Below are positions 1 to 9,275 of a stretch of DNA of 9,275 nucleotides, one piece after another; the stretch's first letter is position 1; every line of letters begins with the position of its first letter. The translations under genes were made by a program, and so were the position numbers. The notes below the pieces were generated by a model that was not told the origin of the DNA, ran no database searches, and was given only the letters and a program-made list of their open reading frames with translations. Source of the stretch: a virus (taxonomy: Duplodnaviria; Heunggongvirae; Uroviricota; Caudoviricetes); IMG/VR virus record IMGVR_UViG_2671181100_000005; one strand, written 5' to 3'.

Positions 1-90
1 GGTCATGGCCTCCATAGTGATGGCGGGTCCTCCTTGTGGGGTGCCCTGCCACGGGGCGGGAGCATCGCGGAAAAAGGCTAGTTTTTGCAT
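1..90 (-). CDS. 5' end of an unidentified ORF running off the left edge
   Basis: Minus-strand frame is open from ATG at 90..88 (MQKLAFFRDAPAPWQGTPQGGPAITMEAMT...) to position 1. An alternative ATG at 15..13 is preceded by AAGGAGGA. No similarity to lambda gpA N-terminus by eye. Confidence 0.2.
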   Translation of the reverse strand, partial: MQKLAFFRDAPAPWQGTPQGGPAITMEAMT

Positions 91-251
91 TTTTATTCGT
101 CATCACCACCAATGCAATATATTGATATGACTTGATGTTTTATTTTTCGGTGTCGATTTCGATTGTTTTTTGTTCATCACTGACGCATAACGCCCACCAG
201 CGCAACGCTGAAAGCCAGTCAGTAAACTGGCTTCGGTCATTGTGCACTACG

Positions 252-794
252 TTACTTGTCTTTATCCGGCTGAAACTTATCAGGCACATTTCCGGTAGTT
301 TCCATCAGATAATCGGACAGCATTCGCGGGATGTTTTCATCAAGTTTTGTGCATGCGTTACAGGCTCTGACAACTTCTTTTTTCAGGCCATCCAGCATGG
401 CGGGGGTCATCTGTGGGAAGCTCCTTTGCATAGTAAGCGGCAGGCTGCCCATGATTGAAGAAATCTGACTCGCCAGTTTTGAAAGCGCATATATACAAAA
501 TTCCGTACTAATCACATCGCCGCGTTCGCGCTCGTTTTTAAGCTCCTGCGCCTCCGCCTGCGCTGTCAGCAATCTGATCCTGACTCGCAAAAGCTCATCA
601 TTATCAATCTCGCCTTTGTCGTCTGTAATCTGGTTAATTGCATTGCTAACCCGATTGTCTATTACGCTGGCAACATCATAAAACGCCTCGCGGCCTTTAC
701 GTTCAACGGGAGTCACTCCCCACTTGTCGAACGCTGTCGCACTTACACGGCAGCTTTGCGCCATGTTTTTTTTGTTCATCAGGTGCGATTTCAT
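252..794 (-). CDS. Terminase small subunit, lambda Nu1-like
   Basis: ORF-track protein matches my recollection of lambda Nu1 across the length, e.g. LLTAQAEAQELKNERERGDVISTEFCIYALSKLASQISSIMGSLPLTMQRSFP versus Nu1 LTRAQADAQELKNARDSAEVVETAFCTFVLSRIAGEIASILDGLPLSVQRRFP, and C-terminal LDENIPRMLSDYLMETTG versus LDELIPGLLSEYIEQSG. Start chosen at ATG 794..792 (GGGGA 6 nt upstream); ATG at 779 is an alternative. Lies directly downstream of the cos site, as in lambda. Confidence 0.85.
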   Translation of the reverse strand: MKSHLMNKKNMAQSCRVSATAFDKWGVTPVERKGREAFYDVASVIDNRVSNAINQITDDKGEIDNDELLRVRIRLLTAQAEAQELKNERERGDVISTEFCIYALSKLASQISSIMGSLPLTMQRSFPQMTPAMLDGLKKEVVRACNACTKLDENIPRMLSDYLMETTGNVPDKFQPDKDK

Positions 795-799
795 CAATA

Positions 800-990
800 T
801 CCCCACTTAAGTAATGTTTCAGGTTGGTGTATTGGCTTTATCTTTTCCTTTTTATTCATAGAGATAGAGCGAACAACAAAACCACCACCAGCACCCGAAA
901 AAGGCTCATAAATAGCGAAAACCCGCGAGGTCGCCGCCCCGTAGCCTACCGGATCGCCGGAAAGGACCCGCCAGCCAGAACGGGCCCTAA
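800..990 (-). other. Lambda-type cos site: cosN 12-nt cohesive end at 928..939 (complement), cosQ-like at about 945..985, divergent cosB-like at about 800..927
   Basis: Reverse complement of 907..940 reads GGGCGGCGACCTCGCGGGTTTTCGCTATTTATGA, identical to the first 34 nt of lambda as I remember them, then diverges. Reverse complement of 941..973 reads GGCGGGTCCTTTCCGGCGATCCGGTAGGCTACG, close to the lambda right end (GACGGGTCCTTTCCGGTGATCCGACAGGTTACG). Confidence 0.75.
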
Positions 991-995
991 TTTCA

Positions 996-1379
996 TCAAC
1001 CAATCAACTTATAGCGACCATCCCGTGCATTGCGACGTACACGCTCAATCTTGAGGCATAGCGCCGCATCTGGCTTTTTTGGGACAGGTACGCGGCAATA
1101 TTCAGAAGCTCGAGGAATATTGTTTATCCAGTCGATCACTTCACTTAAATACCAGGCCTTACGCCCTTCCGTAACCTGTACGCGTTCGGGGAACTCTCCG
1201 CGAGCCTCAAGGTTTAGCAATGTGCGACGGCTAAGGGTAGTAAGTTCCATCACCTGATTCATATCAACAAGGCGTTCACTTAAACGCATTTTGTCAGCAA
1301 TAGCCTTTAATTCCTCTACTGCTGGATCCGGATACATCATTTCGGCAATTGGCTTAAGGTCATTGTAATGATTCTGCAT
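996..1379 (-). CDS. AlpA-family HTH DNA-binding protein, second copy, with N- and C-terminal extensions
   Basis: Core MELTTLSRRTLLNLEARGEFPERVQVTEGRKAWYLSEVIDWINN resembles Phage_AlpA-type HTH proteins. ATG at 1379 is preceded by AAGGGGGA. Starts 11 nt after the D-like gene stop and ends next to cosQ. Confidence 0.7.
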   Translation of the reverse strand: MQNHYNDLKPIAEMMYPDPAVEELKAIADKMRLSERLVDMNQVMELTTLSRRTLLNLEARGEFPERVQVTEGRKAWYLSEVIDWINNIPRASEYCRVPVPKKPDAALCLKIERVRRNARDGRYKLIG

Positions 1380-1390
1380 TGTATCCCCCT

Positions 1391-1732
1391 TTACACACGA
1401 GCCAGCGGCTGAACAGAAATACCTGAGCCAACAAACGCGGCAACCTTTGCCGACAGTTCTTTTACAGACTCAGGCCAGTTCAGAGCATCAACATTTAAAA
1501 CACCTGTCTTATAAACCTGTGCCTGTGTTTTTTTCGCTGTGTCGATTTGTACAGCGGAAACATAAACCGCTTTGCCTGCGCTCGTTCCATCCCATACCAC
1601 TAGCGCACCAGTTGCATCTTCCTGCATCAGTGGCGTAAACGCAGGTATTACCCCTTTATTGGCTGAAAATATCCCCAGCGTAGTAACCAGTGCTTCAGTG
1701 CCAGACATGAGTTCAGTGTAATGAGTAGCCAT
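1391..1732 (-). CDS. Head decoration protein, lambda gpD-like
   Basis: PAFTPLMQEDATGALVVWDGTSAGKAVYVSAV and YKTGVLNVDALNWPESVKELSAKVAAFVGSGISV parallel lambda gpD [32 protein letters not shown] and [35 protein letters not shown] (from memory). 113 aa versus 110 aa for gpD. RBS GGGGGAG precedes the ATG. Confidence 0.85.
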   Translation of the reverse strand: MATHYTELMSGTEALVTTLGIFSANKGVIPAFTPLMQEDATGALVVWDGTSAGKAVYVSAVQIDTAKKTQAQVYKTGVLNVDALNWPESVKELSAKVAAFVGSGISVQPLARV

Positions 1733-1741
1733 TGCTCCCCC

Positions 1742-2788
1742 TTAGCCAATGCGAACGGTAACAAAACGATTGATGCGGGCCGGTATTGGCTGTGGTGCTG
1801 AATGTGTCTGCACATATTCAATAGCCGGATCACCAGGCACAATATAGTTTTTCGGTGCAAGTTCGGCTTTAGTCAGCCCCATCCGGATTAGCTCCGGATC
1901 CTGAATACCGCCATAAGCGACAATCCCCTGAAGAGCCGTATTGCCAAGCACCATCAAATCAGGATCAAGGAAATATTTTTCAGTTCCGTCCTCGTCGGTA
2001 TAACGCCCGCTGTAAACAACAATCGCAACATCGCCCATATACCCTTTAAAACTCACCGAATCACCAAGGTCTTTAAGGGCCGTTTCCAGTTCGGAATTAG
2101 AACCACGACGAGTATCCAGAGCCTCTTTTATCGCCCTGAATGAACGGTATTTCTTCCATACATTACCGCCCATAATGATAATATTAGTGACGCCCTCACT
2201 AAATTCTGCGTAGCTCTCAATATCATCATTTGGATCAAAAGCTTCTTTATCCTTACCTGACCACTCAGCACCGCCAGACTGAGTGATGATATTTTGTGGT
2301 TTAATATTCCAGTCCAGCTCATAACGTTCAATACCATCGCCCTCAATGATATTTTTCCCCGTTGTGATTGCCTGAACGGCAAGCCATTCAATACGTGCAC
2401 GAATAGCTTTAGCCTGATTTACAATCGCCTGTTTAACTTTAATATTACGCGCTCCAAAAGCATTGTATTGCTCAGGTGATACACCAGCAGGGCGCACAGC
2501 TAACTTATTTGGATCAATGCTGCTTTTCGGTTTCATATAGCCAGGGCGAATTGTTTTTGATTCGTATCCCTCATCTCGTGAAACTTTACTGCCCACCATA
2601 GGAGAGCAAAACGCCGCGATCGGGATATTTGGATCGTCGATCGTATCAAGAATAATGTCTCTCGATTCAAACATTACCGAGCGAGTGAAAAACAAACTGG
2701 TAAACAACGCATTTAATTTTTTTTGCACATCTTCAGCATTAGCCACCTGCACAAGCTGTGTAGGCGAATATAAGTCAACCATACTCAT
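1742..2788 (-). CDS. Major capsid protein, lambda gpE family
   Basis: Long collinear similarity to lambda gpE as I recall it: NIITQSGGAEWSGKDKEAFDPNDDIESYA, DTRRGSNSELETALKDLGDSVSFKGYMGDVAIVVYSG, MVLGNT, PGDPAIEY. Start set at the MSM motif (ATG 2788, or 2782 with AAAGAGG 6 nt upstream), like lambda E's MSM start. The longer track ORF (start 2869) is probably an upstream extension. Confidence 0.9.
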   Translation of the reverse strand: MSMVDLYSPTQLVQVANAEDVQKKLNALFTSLFFTRSVMFESRDIILDTIDDPNIPIAAFCSPMVGSKVSRDEGYESKTIRPGYMKPKSSIDPNKLAVRPAGVSPEQYNAFGARNIKVKQAIVNQAKAIRARIEWLAVQAITTGKNIIEGDGIERYELDWNIKPQNIITQSGGAEWSGKDKEAFDPNDDIESYAEFSEGVTNIIIMGGNVWKKYRSFRAIKEALDTRRGSNSELETALKDLGDSVSFKGYMGDVAIVVYSGRYTDEDGTEKYFLDPDLMVLGNTALQGIVAYGGIQDPELIRMGLTKAELAPKNYIVPGDPAIEYVQTHSAPQPIPARINRFVTVRIG

Positions 2789-2999: not shown

Positions 3000-3422
3000 T
3001 TAAAACGGTATATTATCGCCGTACGGATCATCATTCCCCGACTGTTGTTTTGCCCTGTTCAGTGCGTCAGTGGCCTGCCCCTGCTGGCCTTTTTTGCCGC
3101 CCGGTCGCGCTGTTCGCGCACTGATCACGCTGTCTGCGATAACCTGCCAGCCCTGCCGCGTTTCGCCGTTCTGGCCTGTCCACTGGCTTACCTGCATGTT
3201 ACCCGCCACGCTCACCAGTTCGCCTTTGTGGTGTTTTGCCAGTGCGTCGGCCTGTCTGCCAAACGCCAGGACGGATAACCACATCATCGCCGTTCCGTCA
3301 TCTGCCTGGCTGCACGGAAGGGGGACCGCCATACTAGCCATCGCCATTTGTGTACCCTTGCTGGTGGTCTTTAACTGCGGATCAGCCACCAGCCGTCCGT
3401 AAGCCGCTATCTGTGCTGTCAT
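3000..3422 (-). CDS. ssb: Single-stranded DNA-binding protein (SSB)
   Basis: OB-fold-like N-terminal region (YGRLVADPQL..., WLSVLAFGRQADALAKHHKGELVSVAGNMQVSQWTGQNGETRQGWQVIADSV) parallels E. coli SSB. Gly/Gln-rich linker and acidic C-terminal tail ...DDPYGDNIPF match the SSB signature ...DDDIPF. Start ATG overlaps the upstream ORF stop (ATGA). Confidence 0.85.
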   Translation of the reverse strand: MTAQIAAYGRLVADPQLKTTSKGTQMAMASMAVPLPCSQADDGTAMMWLSVLAFGRQADALAKHHKGELVSVAGNMQVSQWTGQNGETRQGWQVIADSVISARTARPGGKKGQQGQATDALNRAKQQSGNDDPYGDNIPF

Positions 3423-3664: not shown

Positions 3665-3708
3665 AGGCTTTATCTCACAGCAGTAAATTAAAATTTTTGC
3701 GTTTTAAC

Positions 3709-3905
3709 CCTTCACCTGTTCACCTTTTGATATTTTATCTTTTAATTCATAATGTTAAGGGGTGAACAGTTTCACAAAAACTATTCACCAACTGTTCACC
3801 ACTGTTCACNNNNNNNNNNNNNNNNNNNNNNNNNNNNNNNNNNNNNNNNNNNNNNNNNNNNNNNNNNNNNNNNNNNNNNNNNNNNNGTGAACAGTGGTGA
3901 ACAGT
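3709..3905. repeat. Iteron array of octamer TGTTCACC / GGTGAACA (P4 ori/crr-type), candidate replication origin
   Basis: Exact octamers at 3717..3724 and 3793..3800 (TGTTCACC) and 3761..3768 and 3896..3903 (GGTGAACA). Gap-truncated copies at 3803..3809 and 3887..3893, plus degenerate copies (3709..3716, 3783..3789). Sits immediately downstream of the primase-helicase gene. Confidence 0.6.
3810..3886. other. Run of 77 N (unresolved or masked sequence) inside the iteron region
   Basis: Directly visible in the sequence. Flanked by a perfect 19-nt inverted repeat (3791..3809 ACTGTTCACCACTGTTCAC; 3887..3905 GTGAACAGTGGTGAACAGT). Confidence 0.95.
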
Positions 3906-3917
3906 TATTCCATAAGT

Positions 3918-5735
3918 TTAATTTTTGCTATCGTCATTAGTGACCGATACACATGATGGCATCCAGTCTTCTGATTCCTCCGTCAGTGTCACGTTTGAAC
4001 GCAAACCGTGCTTCGTTTTCCGTTTCATATACTCCCTGCCATATTCCGCCATTGCCCCCGGCATATCTTTACCGAAGCGCGTCAGTGTTACAGGTTTACC
4101 AAACCCATGTGCCTTCATATAAGCCAGATAGGCATGATAGAGATACCTGCGCGGGCTGAATGGCACAATTTCAGCATTACCCACTAACAGGCCATCACAC
4201 ATTACCGACGCCATGAGATAGCCGCAGAAGTCCACCAGCGAATCACCTTCACGCTTTATCGCGAGTGCTTCTTCTGATTTCTGCTGCTCATATAAAAGGC
4301 GTCTGGCTTCGTCCTGGTCAGCAAACCGTGTAAGCAGATGACGAATCACTACCGCCAGCTCACCTTCTATTTTTTCCGCCAGCATTGAATCGCGTTCGTT
4401 CTCCGGTACAACTTCCGAAAAATTGAATATCACCCGACGTCGCGAGATCCCCCCACTGCGGTCACTGAATGACATAGCGTTATTGTTAACCGCCAGCACT
4501 ACTGCCGGGATACGCGTTGAATATGGGGCTTTATGTTTTGGGTCGATTGCCACCTTGTCACCGCCTGTAATAGCCTTAATTCCCGCCCCATCACCAGCGT
4601 AGCGGGTCATATCCGGCATGATAATCAGCGAAAAGCCAACCACTAACGCGCGTTCCCTTGCATCTTCCAGCGCCTTCATGCTCGCTGATACTGTATTAGC
4701 CTTACCCGCCAGCATGGTGCAAATCTCCGCCATCACGCTTTTACCACTTCCCCCTGGACCTGTTACCTCAATGAATAACTGCCAGTCGTACCGGTTCGCC
4801 AGCACCATGAATAATGCAGCCAGTACGCGATCCGCCTTGCGGTCATTCTCAGCCACCGAACGGCGTAACCACTTCCAGAAATTCGGCGCATGTGTTGCCA
4901 GCGTTTCCCCCTCTGCTGGTGGGCTGAAAGGTAATTCACTGGCAATTAACAACCAGTCGTTTTTGTTATGCTCCCGAAAATTACCTGTTCTGGTATCAAA
5001 TACCCCGTTACTGAATCCAATCAGGTTACGGGCTGTATTCCCCATAACAGGCAAACTTAACTTCATGGTATCGACCGCCGATTTAATGGCGTTCTGCGAA
5101 TAGCTGATCTCCGCATCAATGAAAATCTGTGCCATAGCTCGCTGTAATTCTTTATCCTGTACTGGCTCCCATACAACGCCGTTGTAATGGTGAACAGTGT
5201 CAGAGTCAGCATGAATCGCCAGTTCACCGCCATAATGTGCCAGGAGAACTTCGCCGCGTTGACTTGCTCCCATCTGGTTAAGCGCCAGTGATGAAGCGTT
5301 ATCGTCTTTTACCCGCTCTTTTTTCTTTACAGGCAGTTCAACTACCTTTTTCTTTTCCGCCTGCTCTGCCCGTTCACGTTCCAGATATTCGCGCCAGTTC
5401 TCCCGTTTCTGGCTGTGCATTCCTTCAGGGTAATAATCAGCATCCCTGACACCTGCCGCTGCCAGTTTCTGCCCGATGGTATTAACAAGCCCCGGACGCA
5501 ATAACCCCGCCTGGTAGAGACGCACGCGATAGCGTCCGTCCGGTACGATTTGCAGGTTGTCCAGTTCGGCAAGTTGTTGCTCTCCAAGCCAGACAGGTGG
5601 CACGTTATCGCCAGCCAGTCGCCCGTCCTGTTCCTGCCACTGCTTCGCATGTGCCCACGCATCACTACCCGCAAAAATGATGACTTCCGTCATTTTGTCA
5701 CGCGGCTGGTGTTTTAAATTTGGCGCTTTTTTCAT
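3918..5735 (-). CDS. Replication protein: primase-like N-terminal region fused to an SF3 (D5 / P4 alpha-type) helicase
   Basis: Walker A motif VTGPGGSGKS with a downstream hydrophobic-acidic Walker B-like stretch. Size and position match a satellite pri/alpha gene, followed by its iterons. Start set at ATG 5735, which overlaps the upstream ORF stop (ATGA); the track ORF starts 15 nt further upstream at 5750. Confidence 0.88.
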   Translation of the reverse strand: MKKAPNLKHQPRDKMTEVIIFAGSDAWAHAKQWQEQDGRLAGDNVPPVWLGEQQLAELDNLQIVPDGRYRVRLYQAGLLRPGLVNTIGQKLAAAGVRDADYYPEGMHSQKRENWREYLERERAEQAEKKKVVELPVKKKERVKDDNASSLALNQMGASQRGEVLLAHYGGELAIHADSDTVHHYNGVVWEPVQDKELQRAMAQIFIDAEISYSQNAIKSAVDTMKLSLPVMGNTARNLIGFSNGVFDTRTGNFREHNKNDWLLIASELPFSPPAEGETLATHAPNFWKWLRRSVAENDRKADRVLAALFMVLANRYDWQLFIEVTGPGGSGKSVMAEICTMLAGKANTVSASMKALEDARERALVVGFSLIIMPDMTRYAGDGAGIKAITGGDKVAIDPKHKAPYSTRIPAVVLAVNNNAMSFSDRSGGISRRRVIFNFSEVVPENERDSMLAEKIEGELAVVIRHLLTRFADQDEARRLLYEQQKSEEALAIKREGDSLVDFCGYLMASVMCDGLLVGNAEIVPFSPRRYLYHAYLAYMKAHGFGKPVTLTRFGKDMPGAMAEYGREYMKRKTKHGLRSNVTLTEESEDWMPSCVSVTNDDSKN

Positions 5736-6031
5736 TTCTGCTCTCTCCACGCGGCAATCATGTTTTTCAGTTCCTGTAGTTTTTTATCCACATCCACACG
5801 TGACACATGGTTATTTCTGGAAGTCGGGATTTCCCGCCGGAATCTGCAAATAAAGATCTCCACGTTCAGCGAACTAAGAAATGAATAGCCATCACGGATA
5901 AAATACACACGGTCAAACATCAGTTCTTTTACCGTTACTCTATTACCGTTCTTATCCAGATAAATAGCGCCGGGGATAATTTGGGGGTGTGCATAACCGC
6001 TGGCAGTCAAGCCAGATAAATACGTTCTCAT
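5732..6031 (-). CDS. Hypothetical protein (99 aa), coupled to the primase gene
   Basis: Stop overlaps the primase start (ATGA). GGGGA lies about 9 nt upstream of its ATG. No recognisable motif. Confidence 0.55.
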   Translation of the reverse strand: MRTYLSGLTASGYAHPQIIPGAIYLDKNGNRVTVKELMFDRVYFIRDGYSFLSSLNVEIFICRFRREIPTSRNNHVSRVDVDKKLQELKNMIAAWREQK

Positions 6032-7407: not shown

Positions 7408-7617
7408 TTACGCTGCCTTACCTGAATTAATGCGATCCCGGCTTTTAACCCATTCCATAACCTCGGACAGCAGCCAACCTACAGAACGCCCACCAAGATT
7501 ACGGCGAGACGGAAAGCTCCCTTTTTTCTCCAGTTCGTAGCGTGTAGTGCGACACACTCCAGTTAACTTACGACATTCATCCTCACGGATTACGCGATCT
7601 TCATTTATTTCACGCAT
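7408..7617 (-). CDS. alpA: AlpA-family phage regulatory protein (transcriptional activator / excision regulator)
   Basis: RVIREDECRKLTGVCRTTRYELEKKGSFPSRRNLGGRSVGWLLSEVMEWV is a typical AlpA HTH. Start set at the internal Met (MREINED..., 70 aa, the usual AlpA size). The track ORF extends to 7704 through an AT-rich stretch that looks more like promoter than coding sequence. Confidence 0.8.
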   Translation of the reverse strand: MREINEDRVIREDECRKLTGVCRTTRYELEKKGSFPSRRNLGGRSVGWLLSEVMEWVKSRDRINSGKAA

Positions 7618-8036: not shown

Positions 8037-9275
8037 TCAAGAATTTTGGGGGTAAATTCGCGGGGTCATAACAACGATTTTTTCATCATTGTTCTGGAGA
8101 AGCTCGAGACGGTCTACCCATAGATTAAGAGCATCACGTTTTGCATCAAGGTAGCGGGAGTGGTTATAGACTCGTTGCATCCCTGGCATCTGGTGGGCTG
8201 TAAGCTGCTCGACAATATGCGGATCCACGCCTAAATCGTTCAGCATGGTTGTAAATGTGTGCCGGATATCGTGTAACGTCCAGGGGGCTTGATTAATTCG
8301 TCTGTGCGCTGTTCTTCCGTACTCTGCTACCGAAGATTGTCCTTTCAGTTCACCAAGCAATAAGCCTGTGTGTCTGTTCTGCTCCACCAGTTGCGTGACG
8401 AACGGCAAAATGCTTTCCGGTATTGGCCTGAATATGGCGACCTTCGTTTTGCTGTGCTCCTTCGGTACTGTCCAGAGCATTTCTTTAAAATCCCACTCCT
8501 GCACCTCAGAGCGCCTTAGCTCAGTGGTACGGCATCCAAAAACAATCAGGAGGCGAATTAGGGCGCTGTAGTATGGCGGGAATATTTTGTCATCCAGGGC
8601 GCGGAGTAATTCCCCAAGCTCCTTATTTGTTAGTACGCGCTCGCTCACTTCTGCTTTTTTTCCCACATCACCGACAACCATATCATCAAGAACGTTGCTG
8701 ATTGCGTATCGTCGTTTTCGGCAGTACTTAAGCGCCTGTTTGCATACCTGTAGCAAAAATCCGGCAGATACTGGGCTTCGCTTTGCCATCTGGTCAAAAC
8801 ATGCCAACCAGTGCCGTAGCTCGCATTTTTCCAACGGCAAAGCGCCAATCTGGCTGATTATGTGTTTATTGATCCGGCTTTTCAGTGATTCGTAGTCAGT
8901 GCGCTTTTCCTTTGCATACGATTCAAGCCAGTAAGTGAGCGCTTCCTTAACTGTCACGGGGGCTAACGCATCCTGTACAGCACGATTAAGCTCATAGCGC
9001 GGATTTTTCCCCTCAGCCAGCCAGGCGCGACACTGTGCTGCTTTTTCCCTGGCTGCTTTCAGACTCAGATCGGGATAATTGCCCAGTCTCAGACGTTCCG
9101 GTGATACCTGCCTACCAGTTCCGGCCCTGTAAGTGAAATACCAGGTTAACAGGCCGCTGGTGGAATGTCTTACGCTAAGATTGCCACCGTCATTAAAAAA
9201 GGCGTTTTTTGTGGTTGGTGATCCGCTTAATTTTCGTAAAAGAGTGTCGCTAAGTCTATGAATTGCGCTGCTCAT
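8037..9275 (-). CDS. int: Tyrosine recombinase / integrase, P4-type
   Basis: N-terminal arm-type region (NDGGNLSVRHSTSGLLTWYFTYRAGTGRQ... YPDLSLKAAREKA) is typical of P4-family integrases. C-terminal catalytic motifs HDIRHTFTTMLNDLG and RVYNHSRY are present. The ATG sits exactly at the window edge (9275). Confidence 0.92.
   Translation of the reverse strand: MSSAIHRLSDTLLRKLSGSPTTKNAFFNDGGNLSVRHSTSGLLTWYFTYRAGTGRQVSPERLRLGNYPDLSLKAAREKAAQCRAWLAEGKNPRYELNRAVQDALAPVTVKEALTYWLESYAKEKRTDYESLKSRINKHIISQIGALPLEKCELRHWLACFDQMAKRSPVSAGFLLQVCKQALKYCRKRRYAISNVLDDMVVGDVGKKAEVSERVLTNKELGELLRALDDKIFPPYYSALIRLLIVFGCRTTELRRSEVQEWDFKEMLWTVPKEHSKTKVAIFRPIPESILPFVTQLVEQNRHTGLLLGELKGQSSVAEYGRTAHRRINQAPWTLHDIRHTFTTMLNDLGVDPHIVEQLTAHQMPGMQRVYNHSRYLDAKRDALNLWVDRLELLQNNDEKIVVMTPRIYPQNS

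What the first reader, a model, noticed from the sequence alone, without database searches (positions are those of the whole stretch)
1..794. Nu1-like small terminase with no lambda-like large terminase gene following it
In lambda, Nu1 is immediately followed by gene A. Here the Nu1 homolog ends at 252, and the only minus-strand ORF in 1..251 that could follow it (1..90, running off the edge) does not begin like gpA. The Nu1-like C-terminal end, the part that contacts gpA in lambda, is similar to lambda's. That suggests the protein recruits a helper large terminase rather than an island-encoded one.
Basis: partly seen in the sequence, partly recalled or inferred. Interest (0 to 1): 0.65.

Follow-up and report, generated by a model that had tools for sequence, protein, structure and literature searches.

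The report
Satellite island's own small terminase
This is the small-terminase gene and packaging site of a known type of E. coli phage satellite (a PICI of the EcCIIHE3034 family), which has no large terminase of its own and must borrow a lambda-type one from a helper phage, so the finding is real but ordinary.

Summary
Window 252-794 (minus strand) encodes a full-length Nu1-family small terminase (TerS). A lambda-identical cosQ-cosN lies just upstream. No large terminase (TerL) follows it or occurs anywhere in the island. The ORF running off the left edge is a conserved 94-aa gene of unknown function, followed by chromosomal clpS.

The window is the interior of a phage-inducible chromosomal island (PICI) between cspD and clpS. 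This is the att site of EcCIIHE3034 and EcCI18098, which Fillol-Salom et al. 2018 already reported as TerS-encoding. SatelliteFinder treats terS as a PICI core component and uses terL to define the separate cf-PICI class.

New detail from this work:
- The TerS is not an Rpp.
- Its DNA-binding domain is N15-gp1-like and covaries with a private cosB element.
- Its C-terminal half was found only in PICIs and is at most 52% identical to any phage Nu1.
- A cos region 140/140 nt identical to the window's, with a 91%-identical TerS, sits in a PICI embedded in a prophage whose gpA is 99.7% lambda. Four more embedded islands (TerS 83-91%) also sit in lambda-gpA prophages.

Use of a helper lambda-type TerL is therefore well supported. 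Direct TerS-gpA contact remains inferred. This is a new member of a known kind, of low to moderate interest.

The parts
252..794 (-). terS: Nu1-family small terminase of the island, 180 aa (alternative GTG start at 806). N15-gp1-like winged-HTH domain at about aa 1-60, a conserved central helix, and a PICI-specific C-terminal half with the tail ETTGNVPDKFQPDKDK.
   Evidence: Pfam PF07471 E 1.2e-21. phrog_57 full length, E 2.8e-50. tblastn N15 gp1 45.7%, lambda Nu1 35.2%. RefSeq annotates it 'terminase small subunit'. dN/dS 0.20 against the IHE3034 copy. AlphaFold2 secondary structure beta-alpha-alpha-beta-beta-alpha, then long helices.
869..890 (-). Candidate cosB / R3-equivalent site, TGGTGGTGGTTTTGTTGTTCGC, at bp 50-71 from the cos left end. 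Proposed binding site of the island TerS.
   Evidence: Conserved 17-20/22 in islands with the N15-like TerS domain, even where cosN differs. Only 4-5/22 in islands and phages with the lambda/21-like domain, and 2/22 in the Rpp-type EcCICFT073. The position corresponds to R3 as defined in PMC9026076.
915..939 (-). cosN. An exact 25-nt match to the lambda left end GGGCGGCGACCTCGCGGGTTTTCGC; the 12-nt cohesive end is 928-939.
   Evidence: One exact match in the locus against 0.00 expected from shuffles. 34/34 identical to lambda bp 1-34.
963..969 (-). cosQ, GGGTCCT, 30 nt upstream of the cohesive-end start, the same spacing as in lambda.
   Evidence: Read from the sequence and aligned with the helper and lambda-type cos. 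The lambda coordinates of cosQ come from my own knowledge.
1..90 (-). 5' end of the conserved last gene of the island (94 aa from the RefSeq start, which lies 12 nt left of the window). It is not a terminase.
   Evidence: No Pfam family. phrog_1561, function unknown. 71% identical to the terminal gene of EcCICFT073.
996..1379 (-). Second AlpA-family winged-HTH gene (127 aa), between the decoration gene and cos.
   Evidence: Pfam Phage_AlpA 1.4e-8. PDB 8c3t AlpA-family regulator 1.6e-10. phrog_2790. No similarity to RppA. The same 346/113/127-aa module sits upstream of terS in helper-embedded PICIs.
1391..1732 (-). Lambda gpD-like head decoration protein homologue (113 aa).
   Evidence: Pfam HDPD 2.3e-15. 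phrog_49.
1742..2782 (-). Lambda gpE-like major capsid protein homologue (346 aa from the RefSeq start; the ORF is open to 2869).
   Evidence: Pfam Phage_cap_E 6.3e-41. phrog_29 8e-89. 55% identical to EcCICFT073 c1499.
3000..3422 (-). Single-strand DNA-binding protein.
   Evidence: Pfam SSB 1.7e-15.
3665..3917 (.). Probable island replication origin: AACTGTTCACC iterons downstream of the primase gene, partly hidden by the N run at 3810-3886.
   Evidence: An ori downstream of pri-rep is the PICI rule in PMC6092414.
3918..5750 (-). D5-type primase/helicase (pri-rep).
   Evidence: Pfam D5_N, DUF5906, Pox_D5.
7408..7617 (-). alpA, the PICI activator (RefSeq start).
   Evidence: Pfam Phage_AlpA 4.8e-16. 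Annotation.
8037..9275 (-). Tyrosine integrase (412 aa) specific for the cspD-clpS att site.
   Evidence: Pfam Phage_integrase and Arm-DNA-bind_3. Context. The att core ATGATAGTTAT listed for EcCIIHE3034 is present next to clpS.

Best explanation
The gene is the small terminase (TerS) of a phage-inducible chromosomal island of the EcCIIHE3034 type, paired with the island's own cos site.

**Proposed mechanism**
1. A lambda-like helper phage induces the island, which excises and replicates using its own integrase, AlpA, primase and origin.
2. TerS binds through its N15-gp1-like winged-HTH domain to the private cosB element at window 869-890. That element sits at the R3 position next to a cosQ-cosN that is base-for-base lambda's.
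3. Through its Nu1-homologous C-terminal half, TerS engages the helper's lambda-type large terminase (gpA).
4. gpA nicks cosN and packages island DNA into heads built from helper proteins, possibly modified by the island's gpE- and gpD-like proteins.

**Shown here**
- Homology of the protein to Nu1-family small terminases.
- The anatomy of the cos site.
- The absence of any TerL in the island.
- Covariation between the TerS DNA-binding domain and cosB.
- Purifying selection on the gene.
- Physical embedding of near-identical modules in prophages with lambda gpA.

**Inferred**
- TerS binding to cosB.
- A direct TerS-gpA contact.
- Packaging of the island, and any interference with the helper.
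For: - **Full-length Nu1-family TerS.** Supported. It keeps the region that in lambda binds gpA. The known Rpp proteins lack that region, which is why they need the helper's TerS (PMC6739421; PMC9026076).
- **No TerL.** None is present in the island or as a remnant.
- **A clean split among 80 IMG/VR loci.** All 38 with a TerS at least 49% identical to the window's carry island genes and no TerL. Of the other 42, 39 have a TerL immediately adjacent, and the 3 exceptions are truncated contigs. Assembly contexts agree.
- **cos anatomy.** cosQ and cosN are identical to lambda's, 34/34. cosB is private and covaries with the TerS domain type. The element persists at 17/22 in a Scandinavium island whose cosN is only 23/34 identical.
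- **Selection.** dN/dS is 0.20 overall and 0.19 in aa 131-180. The gene is present in 762 of 5426 complete E. coli genomes.
- **Natural helper-satellite pairs.** Five helper-embedded islands with TerS 83-91% identical sit in prophages whose gpA is 99-100% identical to lambda. In one, the helper's Nu1 is 98% lambda. In another, the island's cos region is 140/140 identical to the window's.
- **C-terminal motif.** LDENIPxMLSDY matches lambda 8/12 and the phage-21-like type 3/12.
Against: - No experiment exists on this protein.
- The related islands EcCIIHE3034 and EcCI18098 were not transferred after mitomycin C induction of their resident prophages (PMC6092414). No helper has been demonstrated.
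- The region corresponding to lambda's gpA-binding part is only 12-16/41 identical to lambda Nu1, even in islands embedded in lambda-terminase prophages. That is as far as lambda is from a phage-21-like TerS.
- A second island C-terminal variant (VADNLPxILADY) matches lambda only 3/12, yet it also sits in lambda-gpA prophages.
- Some islands combine this C-terminal half with a helper-identical DNA-binding domain and a helper-type cosB. The C-terminal half must therefore do something beyond giving private DNA specificity.
- Embedding shows association with lambda-type terminase. It does not show a direct TerS-gpA contact.
Confidence: 0.6

Rival explanations
1. Rpp-like action. The island TerS does not bind TerL itself. 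It forms mixed oligomers with the helper's Nu1, and these both retarget the helper terminase to the island's cosB and poison packaging of the phage.
For: - The most conserved stretch between island and phage TerS proteins is the central helix: R72, R74, L75, A78, A80, A82, E84, L85 and N87 are invariant. The self-association region is 46-56% identical to phage Nu1.
- In the sister island EcCICFT073, the gene in the same slot (RppA) works exactly this way (PMC6739421). The flanking genes are conserved.
- The C-terminal 41 residues are not close to the embedding helper's Nu1.
Against: - The protein keeps a selected, full-length Nu1-type C-terminus, which Rpp proteins lack (PMC9026076).
- It has no detectable sequence similarity to RppA and no direct PDB hit to RppC.
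- Rpp contacts the TerS DNA-binding domain. Here that domain is only 39% identical to lambda's.
Confidence: 0.2
2. Mainly an interference or decoy protein. The PICI-specific C-terminal half sequesters helper TerL or TerS so that phage packaging is blocked. Island packaging itself relies on the lambda-type cosQ-cosN and the helper's own terminase.
For: - Chimeric relatives carry a helper-identical DNA-binding domain (96-100% over aa 1-99) and a helper-type cosB, yet keep the island C-terminal half. In those islands the protein is not needed for private DNA recognition.
- Interference with the helper is a general PICI trait (PMC6739421).
Against: - In the window's class, cosB lacks the lambda R sites. 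Helper Nu1 should therefore not initiate there efficiently.
- The private cosB element is conserved together with the TerS domain across genera, as expected for a working recognition pair.
Confidence: 0.1
3. A decaying remnant of a lambdoid or N15-like prophage head-gene region, with no present function.
For: - Truncated lambdoid terminase regions are common in E. coli.
- The island carries only fragments of a head module: homologues of gpE, gpD and Nu1.
Against: - The ORF is intact in 762 genomes, with dN/dS 0.20.
- The order cos-terS-terminal gene is constant at several att sites and in several genera.
- The island has a complete int-alpA-pri-ori backbone.
Confidence: 0.03

Closest known systems
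EcCIIHE3034 and EcCI18098, TerS-encoding E. coli PICIs (Fillol-Salom et al. 2018, ISME J, PMC6092414)
   Same: - Same att site (cspD-clpS, core ATGATAGTTAT) and same 412-aa integrase type.
- Same gene order: int-alpA-pri-ssb-capsid-decoration-x-cos-terS-terminal gene.
- TerS 84% identical; the cosB element is shared.
   Different: - The gene between the decoration gene and cos is an AlpA-like 127-aa protein here, against an unrelated 137-aa protein in IHE3034.
- The capsid region is only about 65% identical at DNA level.
- IHE3034 has a second, inverted cos copy downstream of terS; the window has none.
- The paper reports that terS is present but does not study it.
Rpp (RppA/B/C) of EcCICFT073-type PICIs (Fillol-Salom et al. 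2019, PMC6739421; Murialdo & Feiss 2022, PMC9026076)
   Same: - Same slot in a syntenic island, next to a cos with lambda-type cosQ-cosN and a private cosB.
- Same task: redirecting a lambda-type helper terminase to island DNA.
- A related winged-HTH fold. A profile of Nu1-family proteins hits RppC weakly, E 0.007.
   Different: - No pairwise sequence similarity.
- Rpp is 144-153 aa and lacks the Nu1 C-terminal part, so it needs helper TerS. This protein is a full-length Nu1 homologue.
- cosB differs: ACCACCACC in EcCICFT073 against GGTGGTGGT here.
Lambda Nu1 and N15 gp1 (phage small terminases, Pfam PF07471)
   Same: - Homologous over the whole length.
- The gene lies directly downstream of cos.
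- The DNA-binding domain is most like N15 gp1 (26/48), and cosB shares a GGT/TGT-rich core with N15 at the R3 position.
   Different: - It is not followed or overlapped by a TerL gene.
- The C-terminal half is at most 52% identical to any phage Nu1 in 50,697 phage records and carries a 12-13-aa extension.
SaPI TerS (pac-type SaPIs; Ubeda et al. 2007, as cited in PMC6739421)
   Same: - Same logic: a satellite-encoded TerS pairs with the helper's TerL to package the satellite's own DNA.
   Different: - SaPI TerS belongs to a headful (pac) system and works together with Ppi. This one is a cos system of the lambda type.
- Homology between the two was not tested here.
Helper-embedded PICIs (Williams laboratory, 2023, PMC10111431)
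   Same: - The same late module (capsid 346 aa, decoration 113 aa, AlpA-like 127 aa, Nu1-like TerS) occurs in islands inserted in genes A, B or E of lambdoid prophages.
   Different: - The window's island sits in the chromosome, with an integrase only 37-42% identical.
- The model element 11capE of that paper lacks terS.
cf-PICIs (capsid-forming PICIs; bioRxiv 10.1101/2022.09.08.507074)
   Same: - A satellite that carries its own capsid-related and terS genes.
   Different: - cf-PICIs also encode TerL, portal, protease, head-tail connectors and HNH. None of these is present here.

Membership tests
Nu1-family phage small terminase (Pfam PF07471 / phrog_57) | Significant match to the family profile | tested here: met
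   PF07471 77.5 bits against a cutoff of 30, over the C-terminal half of the profile. phrog_57 over aa 1-173, E 2.8e-50.
Nu1-family phage small terminase (Pfam PF07471 / phrog_57) | N-terminal winged-HTH DNA-binding domain | tested here: inconclusive
   Sequence aligns with the DNA-binding domains of N15 gp1 (26/48) and lambda Nu1 (23/59). The AlphaFold2 model shows a beta-alpha-alpha-beta-beta-alpha pattern. Foldseek against the PDB gave no significant hit, best E 0.96.
Nu1-family phage small terminase (Pfam PF07471 / phrog_57) | Gene lies directly downstream of a cos site, with cosB between cosN and the gene | tested here: met
   cosQ at 963-969, cosN at 915-939, TerS start at 794.
Nu1-family phage small terminase (Pfam PF07471 / phrog_57) | Followed or overlapped by the cognate large terminase gene (gpA) | tested here: not met
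   No TerL in the island or its flanks. The same holds for all 38 close relatives in IMG/VR, whereas phage-borne relatives have an adjacent TerL.
Nu1-family phage small terminase (Pfam PF07471 / phrog_57) | Binds the large terminase and cosB | not testable with these tools
   Needs two-hybrid, pull-down and EMSA experiments.
Gram-negative PICI (Fillol-Salom 2018; SatelliteFinder model, PMC10085698) | int, alpA-type regulator, pri-rep with adjacent ori, all co-oriented; size about 10 kb | tested here: met
   The island measures about 10.4 kb, from the att core next to clpS to the integrase.
Gram-negative PICI (Fillol-Salom 2018; SatelliteFinder model, PMC10085698) | Own att site; no lysis, tail, portal or TerL genes; capsid homologue and terS allowed | tested here: met
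   The cspD-clpS site is the one listed for EcCIIHE3034. Gene content.
Gram-negative PICI (Fillol-Salom 2018; SatelliteFinder model, PMC10085698) | Induced and transferred at high frequency by a helper phage | not testable with these tools
   The relatives EcCIIHE3034 and EcCI18098 were not mobilised by their resident prophages (PMC6092414).
Rpp (redirecting phage packaging) proteins | Sequence relationship to RppA/B/C | tested here: not met
   No BLASTP alignment with RppA at E up to 100. No phmmer hit to RppC chains in the PDB.
Rpp (redirecting phage packaging) proteins | Short protein (144-153 aa) lacking the Nu1 C-terminal TerL-binding part | tested here: not met
   180 aa, with profile matches through the Nu1 C-terminus. 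RppA matches phrog_57 only at aa 7-47.
cf-PICI | Encodes TerL, portal, protease and head-tail connectors | tested here: not met
   None present.

The most novel reading that the evidence does not exclude
The C-terminal half of this TerS (about aa 85-180, with the conserved tail ETTGNVPxK) was found only in PICIs here and is at most 52% identical to any phage Nu1. It recombines freely with different DNA-binding domain and cosB cassettes: N15-like with a private cosB, or helper-identical with the helper's cosB. It may be a satellite-specific module that captures lambda-type TerL in competition with, or in preference to, the helper's own Nu1. That would make it a cos-system counterpart of the SaPI TerS-plus-Ppi strategy, folded into one protein and distinct from Rpp.
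Probability: 0.25. Interest if true: 0.5.

Novelty: new member of a known kind. Interest (0 to 1): 0.3.

Why it matters
It matters little as a discovery. A terS gene without terL is part of the definition of a PICI, and this island family was catalogued in 2018.

It has some value as a lead. How cos-type, TerS-encoding PICIs of enterobacteria are packaged has not been worked out in the papers I could search; only the Rpp route has. These islands are common: this terS is in 14% of complete E. coli genomes, including O157:H7 strains.

The analysis gives a concrete, testable picture:
- a candidate helper terminase (lambda gpA);
- a candidate recognition site (window 869-890);
- a simple experiment that separates 'true TerS' from 'Rpp-like': does a helper lacking nu1 still mobilise the island?

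Tried and rejected
- **Locating EcCICFT073.** I guessed coordinates, and two 50-kb fetches hit a lambdoid prophage and plain chromosome before the island was found.
- **Is the protein an Rpp?** No. There is no similarity to RppA or to RppC chains. The neighbouring 127-aa HTH protein is an AlpA-family member, not an Rpp.
- **A hidden or decayed TerL in the island?** No.
- **Structure route.** The AlphaFold2 model had pLDDT 73.6 and pTM 0.31. Foldseek against the PDB gave nothing significant. The PDB profile hits are trivial, because lambda Nu1 was in the profile.
- **Reaching the helper terminase of the Scandinavium and Buttiauxella embedded islands.** Both genome-contig scans found nothing. 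The last large protein search, with the interrupted gpA fragment, did not return that genome. The two truncated gpA proteins I followed up turned out to be decayed prophages, not embedded islands. The question was answered instead with E. coli composites in IMG/VR.
- **NCBIfam.** It has no model for the TerS or the neighbouring genes.
- **Not attempted.** Genome-wide co-occurrence of island TerS variants with prophage TerL types; the search tool lists too few rows per query.
Full report
**1. What is in the window**

Every substantial gene lies on the minus strand except one. Pfam, PHROG and the RefSeq annotation of an identical genome (E. coli CFS3313, NZ_CP026939.2, 100% identity over window 1-1400) give this order:
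- tyrosine integrase (8037-9275)
- AlpA regulator (7408-7617)
- a YlcI/YnfO gene on the plus strand
- an Icd-like gene
- DUF4222 protein (5732-6031)
- D5-type primase (3918-5750)
- an 81-aa gene
- SSB (3000-3422)
- a lambda gpE-like capsid protein (1742-2782)
- a gpD-like decoration protein (1391-1732)
- a second AlpA-family HTH protein of 127 aa (996-1379)
- a cos site
- the Nu1-like gene (252-794)

About 790 bp beyond it lie clpS and clpA. On the other side of the integrase lies cspD. No other gene in the roughly 10.4-kb element is phage-like.

**2. Check of the observation**

The Nu1 call is solid.
- PF07471 scores 77.5 bits against a cutoff of 30.
- phrog_57 'terminase small subunit' matches aa 1-173 at E 2.8e-50.
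- tblastn against 50,697 phage records aligns aa 5-163 to N15 gp1 (45.7%, E 6e-42) and aa 6-176 to lambda Nu1 (35.2%, E 1e-24).

No TerL follows.
- The downstream ORF has no Pfam family, belongs to phrog_1561 (function unknown), and is 71% identical to the terminal gene of EcCICFT073.
- tblastn with the first 130 residues of lambda gpA and N15 gp2 against the island and its flanks finds nothing better than E 1.6.

The 25-mer GGGCGGCGACCTCGCGGGTTTTCGC occurs exactly once, at 915-939 on the minus strand, against 0.00 matches expected from shuffles. cosQ (GGGTCCT, 963-969) sits at lambda's spacing.

**3. What it is**

The element is a phage-inducible chromosomal island (PICI). The supplement of Fillol-Salom et al. 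2018 (PMC6092414) lists EcCIIHE3034 (NC_017628.1, 920272-930825, att ATGATAGTTAT, cspD-clpS) and EcCI18098 at this site. The text says these two islands 'encode TerS' and were not mobilised by their resident prophages.

I fetched EcCIIHE3034. It has the same layout, and its 180-aa TerS is 84% identical to the window's. The att core is present next to clpS in the window's genome.

EcCICFT073, the model island, is syntenic. Its capsid protein is 55% identical and its terminal gene 71% identical. In place of TerS it carries RppA, which shows no sequence similarity to the window protein.

SatelliteFinder (PMC10085698) names the small terminase as a PICI core component and uses terL to define the separate cf-PICI class. 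The gene is also common: it is found at 80% or more coverage in 762 of 5426 complete E. coli genomes, always annotated 'terminase small subunit'.

**4. Anatomy of the packaging module**

Counting from the cohesive-end start, window bp 1-34 equal lambda's 34/34. From about bp 35 the sequence departs from lambda, from N15 and from EcCICFT073.

At bp 50-71 (window 869-890) lies TGGTGGTGGTTTTGTTGTTCGC. This is the position Murialdo & Feiss (PMC9026076) assign to R3, the TerS or Rpp binding site.

The element covaries with the TerS DNA-binding domain.
- Islands whose TerS has the N15-like domain keep it: the window, IHE3034, nine IMG/VR islands, and a Scandinavium island.
- It is 17/22 identical in Scandinavium even though cosN there is only 23/34 identical.
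- Islands whose TerS has a lambda/21-like domain instead carry a phage-type cosB, 4/22 identical to the window's and nearly identical to that of phage PhiR5_1.

This covariation is the best computational evidence that the island TerS reads the adjacent cosB.

**5. The protein is modular**

An alignment of the family shows three parts:
- a variable DNA-binding domain;
- a central helix almost invariant across phages and islands (RxRLxxAxAxAxELxN);
- a C-terminal half that is constant among islands.

One clade of 194 aa (for example P0101) is 96-100% identical to the CFT073 prophage TerS over aa 1-99 and 100% identical to the window's protein over the last 41 aligned residues.

The island-type C-terminal half is at most 52% identical to any phage Nu1. 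It carries a conserved 12-13-residue extension (ETTGNVPxK...) and is under purifying selection, with dN/dS 0.19 for aa 131-180.

Every context I examined for five subclades, and for relatives from Enterobacter or Citrobacter, Buttiauxella and Scandinavium, is a PICI without TerL.

Among 80 IMG/VR loci the split is clean:
- All 38 with a TerS at least 49% identical to the window's carry island genes and no TerL. Twelve of them include at least 9 kb of downstream sequence.
- Of the other 42 (at most 43% identical, plus one partial 51% match), 39 have a TerL immediately adjacent. The three exceptions are truncated contigs.

**6. Which TerL?**

Several IMG/VR contigs proved to be helper-embedded PICIs of the kind described in PMC10111431. 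They carry this TerS family inside lambdoid prophages. Joining overlapping loci from the same contigs gives five pairs.

| Contig (loci) | Helper terminase | Island |
|---|---|---|
| UViG_2563366819_000003 (L196/L065) | Nu1 C-terminus 97% lambda; gpA 99.7% lambda | Inserted in the portal gene; TerS 90.6% identical to the window's; 140-nt cos region identical to the window's at every base |
| UViG_2541047794_000002 (L171/L050) | Nu1 98.3% lambda; gpA 99.4% lambda | Inserted at about codon 85 of gene E; TerS 83% |
| UViG_2617271340_000010 (L125/L045) | gpA C-terminus 100% lambda | TerS 86%, on the same continuous locus as the gpA end |
| UViG_3300029613_000327 (L155/L041) | gpA 99.4% lambda | TerS 90.6% |
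| UViG_2563366954_000002 (L159/L052) | gpA 99.4% lambda | TerS 83% |

A caveat applies. The island's C-terminus is not a copy of the embedding helper's Nu1 C-terminus: it shares 12-16 of 41 residues. The window/L065 variant does keep the motif LDENIPxMLSDY, against lambda LDELIPGLLSEY (8/12) and 3/12 for a phage-21-like TerS.

Lambda-type cosQ-cosN is present in 4109 of 5426 complete E. coli genomes. Potential helpers are everywhere.

**7. Mechanism and rivals**

The best-supported model is a true satellite TerS. It reads a private cosB and hands lambda-type helper TerL to a lambda-identical cosN (confidence 0.6).

The main rival (0.2) is an Rpp-like mode through mixed oligomers with helper Nu1, which the conserved central helix would allow.

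A decoy or interference role (0.1) is suggested by the chimeras that combine a helper-identical DNA-binding domain and cosB with the island C-terminal half.

Decay of a prophage remnant (0.03) is contradicted by the evidence for selection, the gene's prevalence and the constant synteny.

One experiment separates the first two models: does a helper lacking nu1 still mobilise the island?

**8. Novelty**

The kind is known, and this island is a mosaic relative of a published one. I did not find the following in the papers I could search:
- the description of the TerS as modular;
- the covariation between the DNA-binding domain and cosB;
- the identification of lambda-type gpA as the associated helper terminase.

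These are incremental. I score interest at 0.3.

Noticed in passing
L005 9985-10040 and 10838-10893; L004 32529-32605 and 33263-33339; L011/L012 7784-7905 and 8686-8807 (not in the window): In EcCIIHE3034, EcCICFT073 and the P0120-type islands, the terS (or rppA) gene is flanked by inverted cos-containing repeats of 56-122 nt. In L012 the terS segment is inverted relative to the rest of the operon, while L011 and L013 encode the identical TerS in the co-oriented state. This suggests an invertible cos-terS cassette and may explain the 'two cos sites' of EcCICFT073. The window has a single cos and no such repeat.
   Followed up: partly
window 928-939 compared with L050, L048, L049, L052 (about 200 nt upstream of terS in each): Islands that share the same cosB element and TerS family differ in the 12-nt cohesive end: GGGCGGCGACCT (the window and lambda), GGGCGGAAGGCG, and GGGCGTCAGGCG. 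Some of these are embedded in prophages whose own cosN is lambda's. Whether lambda gpA cuts these variants is unknown.
   Followed up: no
window 881-889 compared with L004 (EcCICFT073 cos, bp 55-63 from the left end): The Rpp-type cosB core ACCACCACC is the reverse complement of the GGTGGTGGT at bp 51-59 of the TerS-type cosB, at nearly the same distance from cosN. This may be coincidence, or the same motif read in the opposite orientation.
   Followed up: no
proteins P0101, P0103, P0105, P0119, P0120; loci L008-L013, L016-L023: There are chimeric island TerS proteins of 194 aa. The N-terminal 99 residues are 96-100% identical to a resident-type lambdoid prophage TerS, paired with a phage-type cosB. 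The C-terminal half is identical to the window's. The P0103-type islands lack the capsid and decoration genes and carry a ProQ-like gene instead, but keep terS and the terminal 94-96-aa gene.
   Followed up: partly
window 3810-3886 and surroundings (L001 15720-15945): The window contains a 77-nt run of N. After the run, window coordinates are 34 nt lower than the corresponding positions in L001, so the run stands for a 111-nt stretch of the genome. That stretch lies in an AT-rich region downstream of the primase gene with direct and inverted AACTGTTCACC iterons, which is probably the island's replication origin.
   Followed up: partly
window 996-1379 (minus strand): A second AlpA-family winged-HTH gene (127 aa) sits between the decoration gene and cos. 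In IHE3034 and CFT073 this slot holds an unrelated 137-aa protein with a weak match to the C-terminal part of head maturation protease/scaffold (phrog_53, E 9e-9). The 127-aa version travels with the capsid/decoration/terS module in helper-embedded PICIs of several genera. Its role is unknown; it might be a late regulator or a packaging accessory.
   Followed up: partly
window 1-15 and L001 11974-12015 (minus strand): The terminal conserved gene begins in a run of ATGACC hexamers, ATGGAGGCC(ATGACC)x4 GAGACC, which gives several in-frame ATG starts and a possible slippage tract. The EcCICFT073 homologue starts directly at MTEAE.
   Followed up: no
window 24-111: This stretch is 79% identical, in opposite orientation, to a segment of EcCIIHE3034 lying between ssb and the capsid operon (L005 7527-7613). 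It may be a repeated regulatory element.
   Followed up: no
window 1391-2782: The island keeps homologues of lambda gpE and gpD without a portal, protease or scaffold. In EcCICFT073 the equivalent genes (c1499, c1500) were dispensable for transfer and for interference (PMC6092414). Their function in this island family is still open.
   Followed up: no
L027 3-644 and 809-2041: In Buttiauxella selenatireducens, a PICI with a related TerS (P0121) is inserted inside the helper prophage's large terminase gene A, after about codon 330. The helper's TerL can therefore only be made after the satellite excises.
   Followed up: partly
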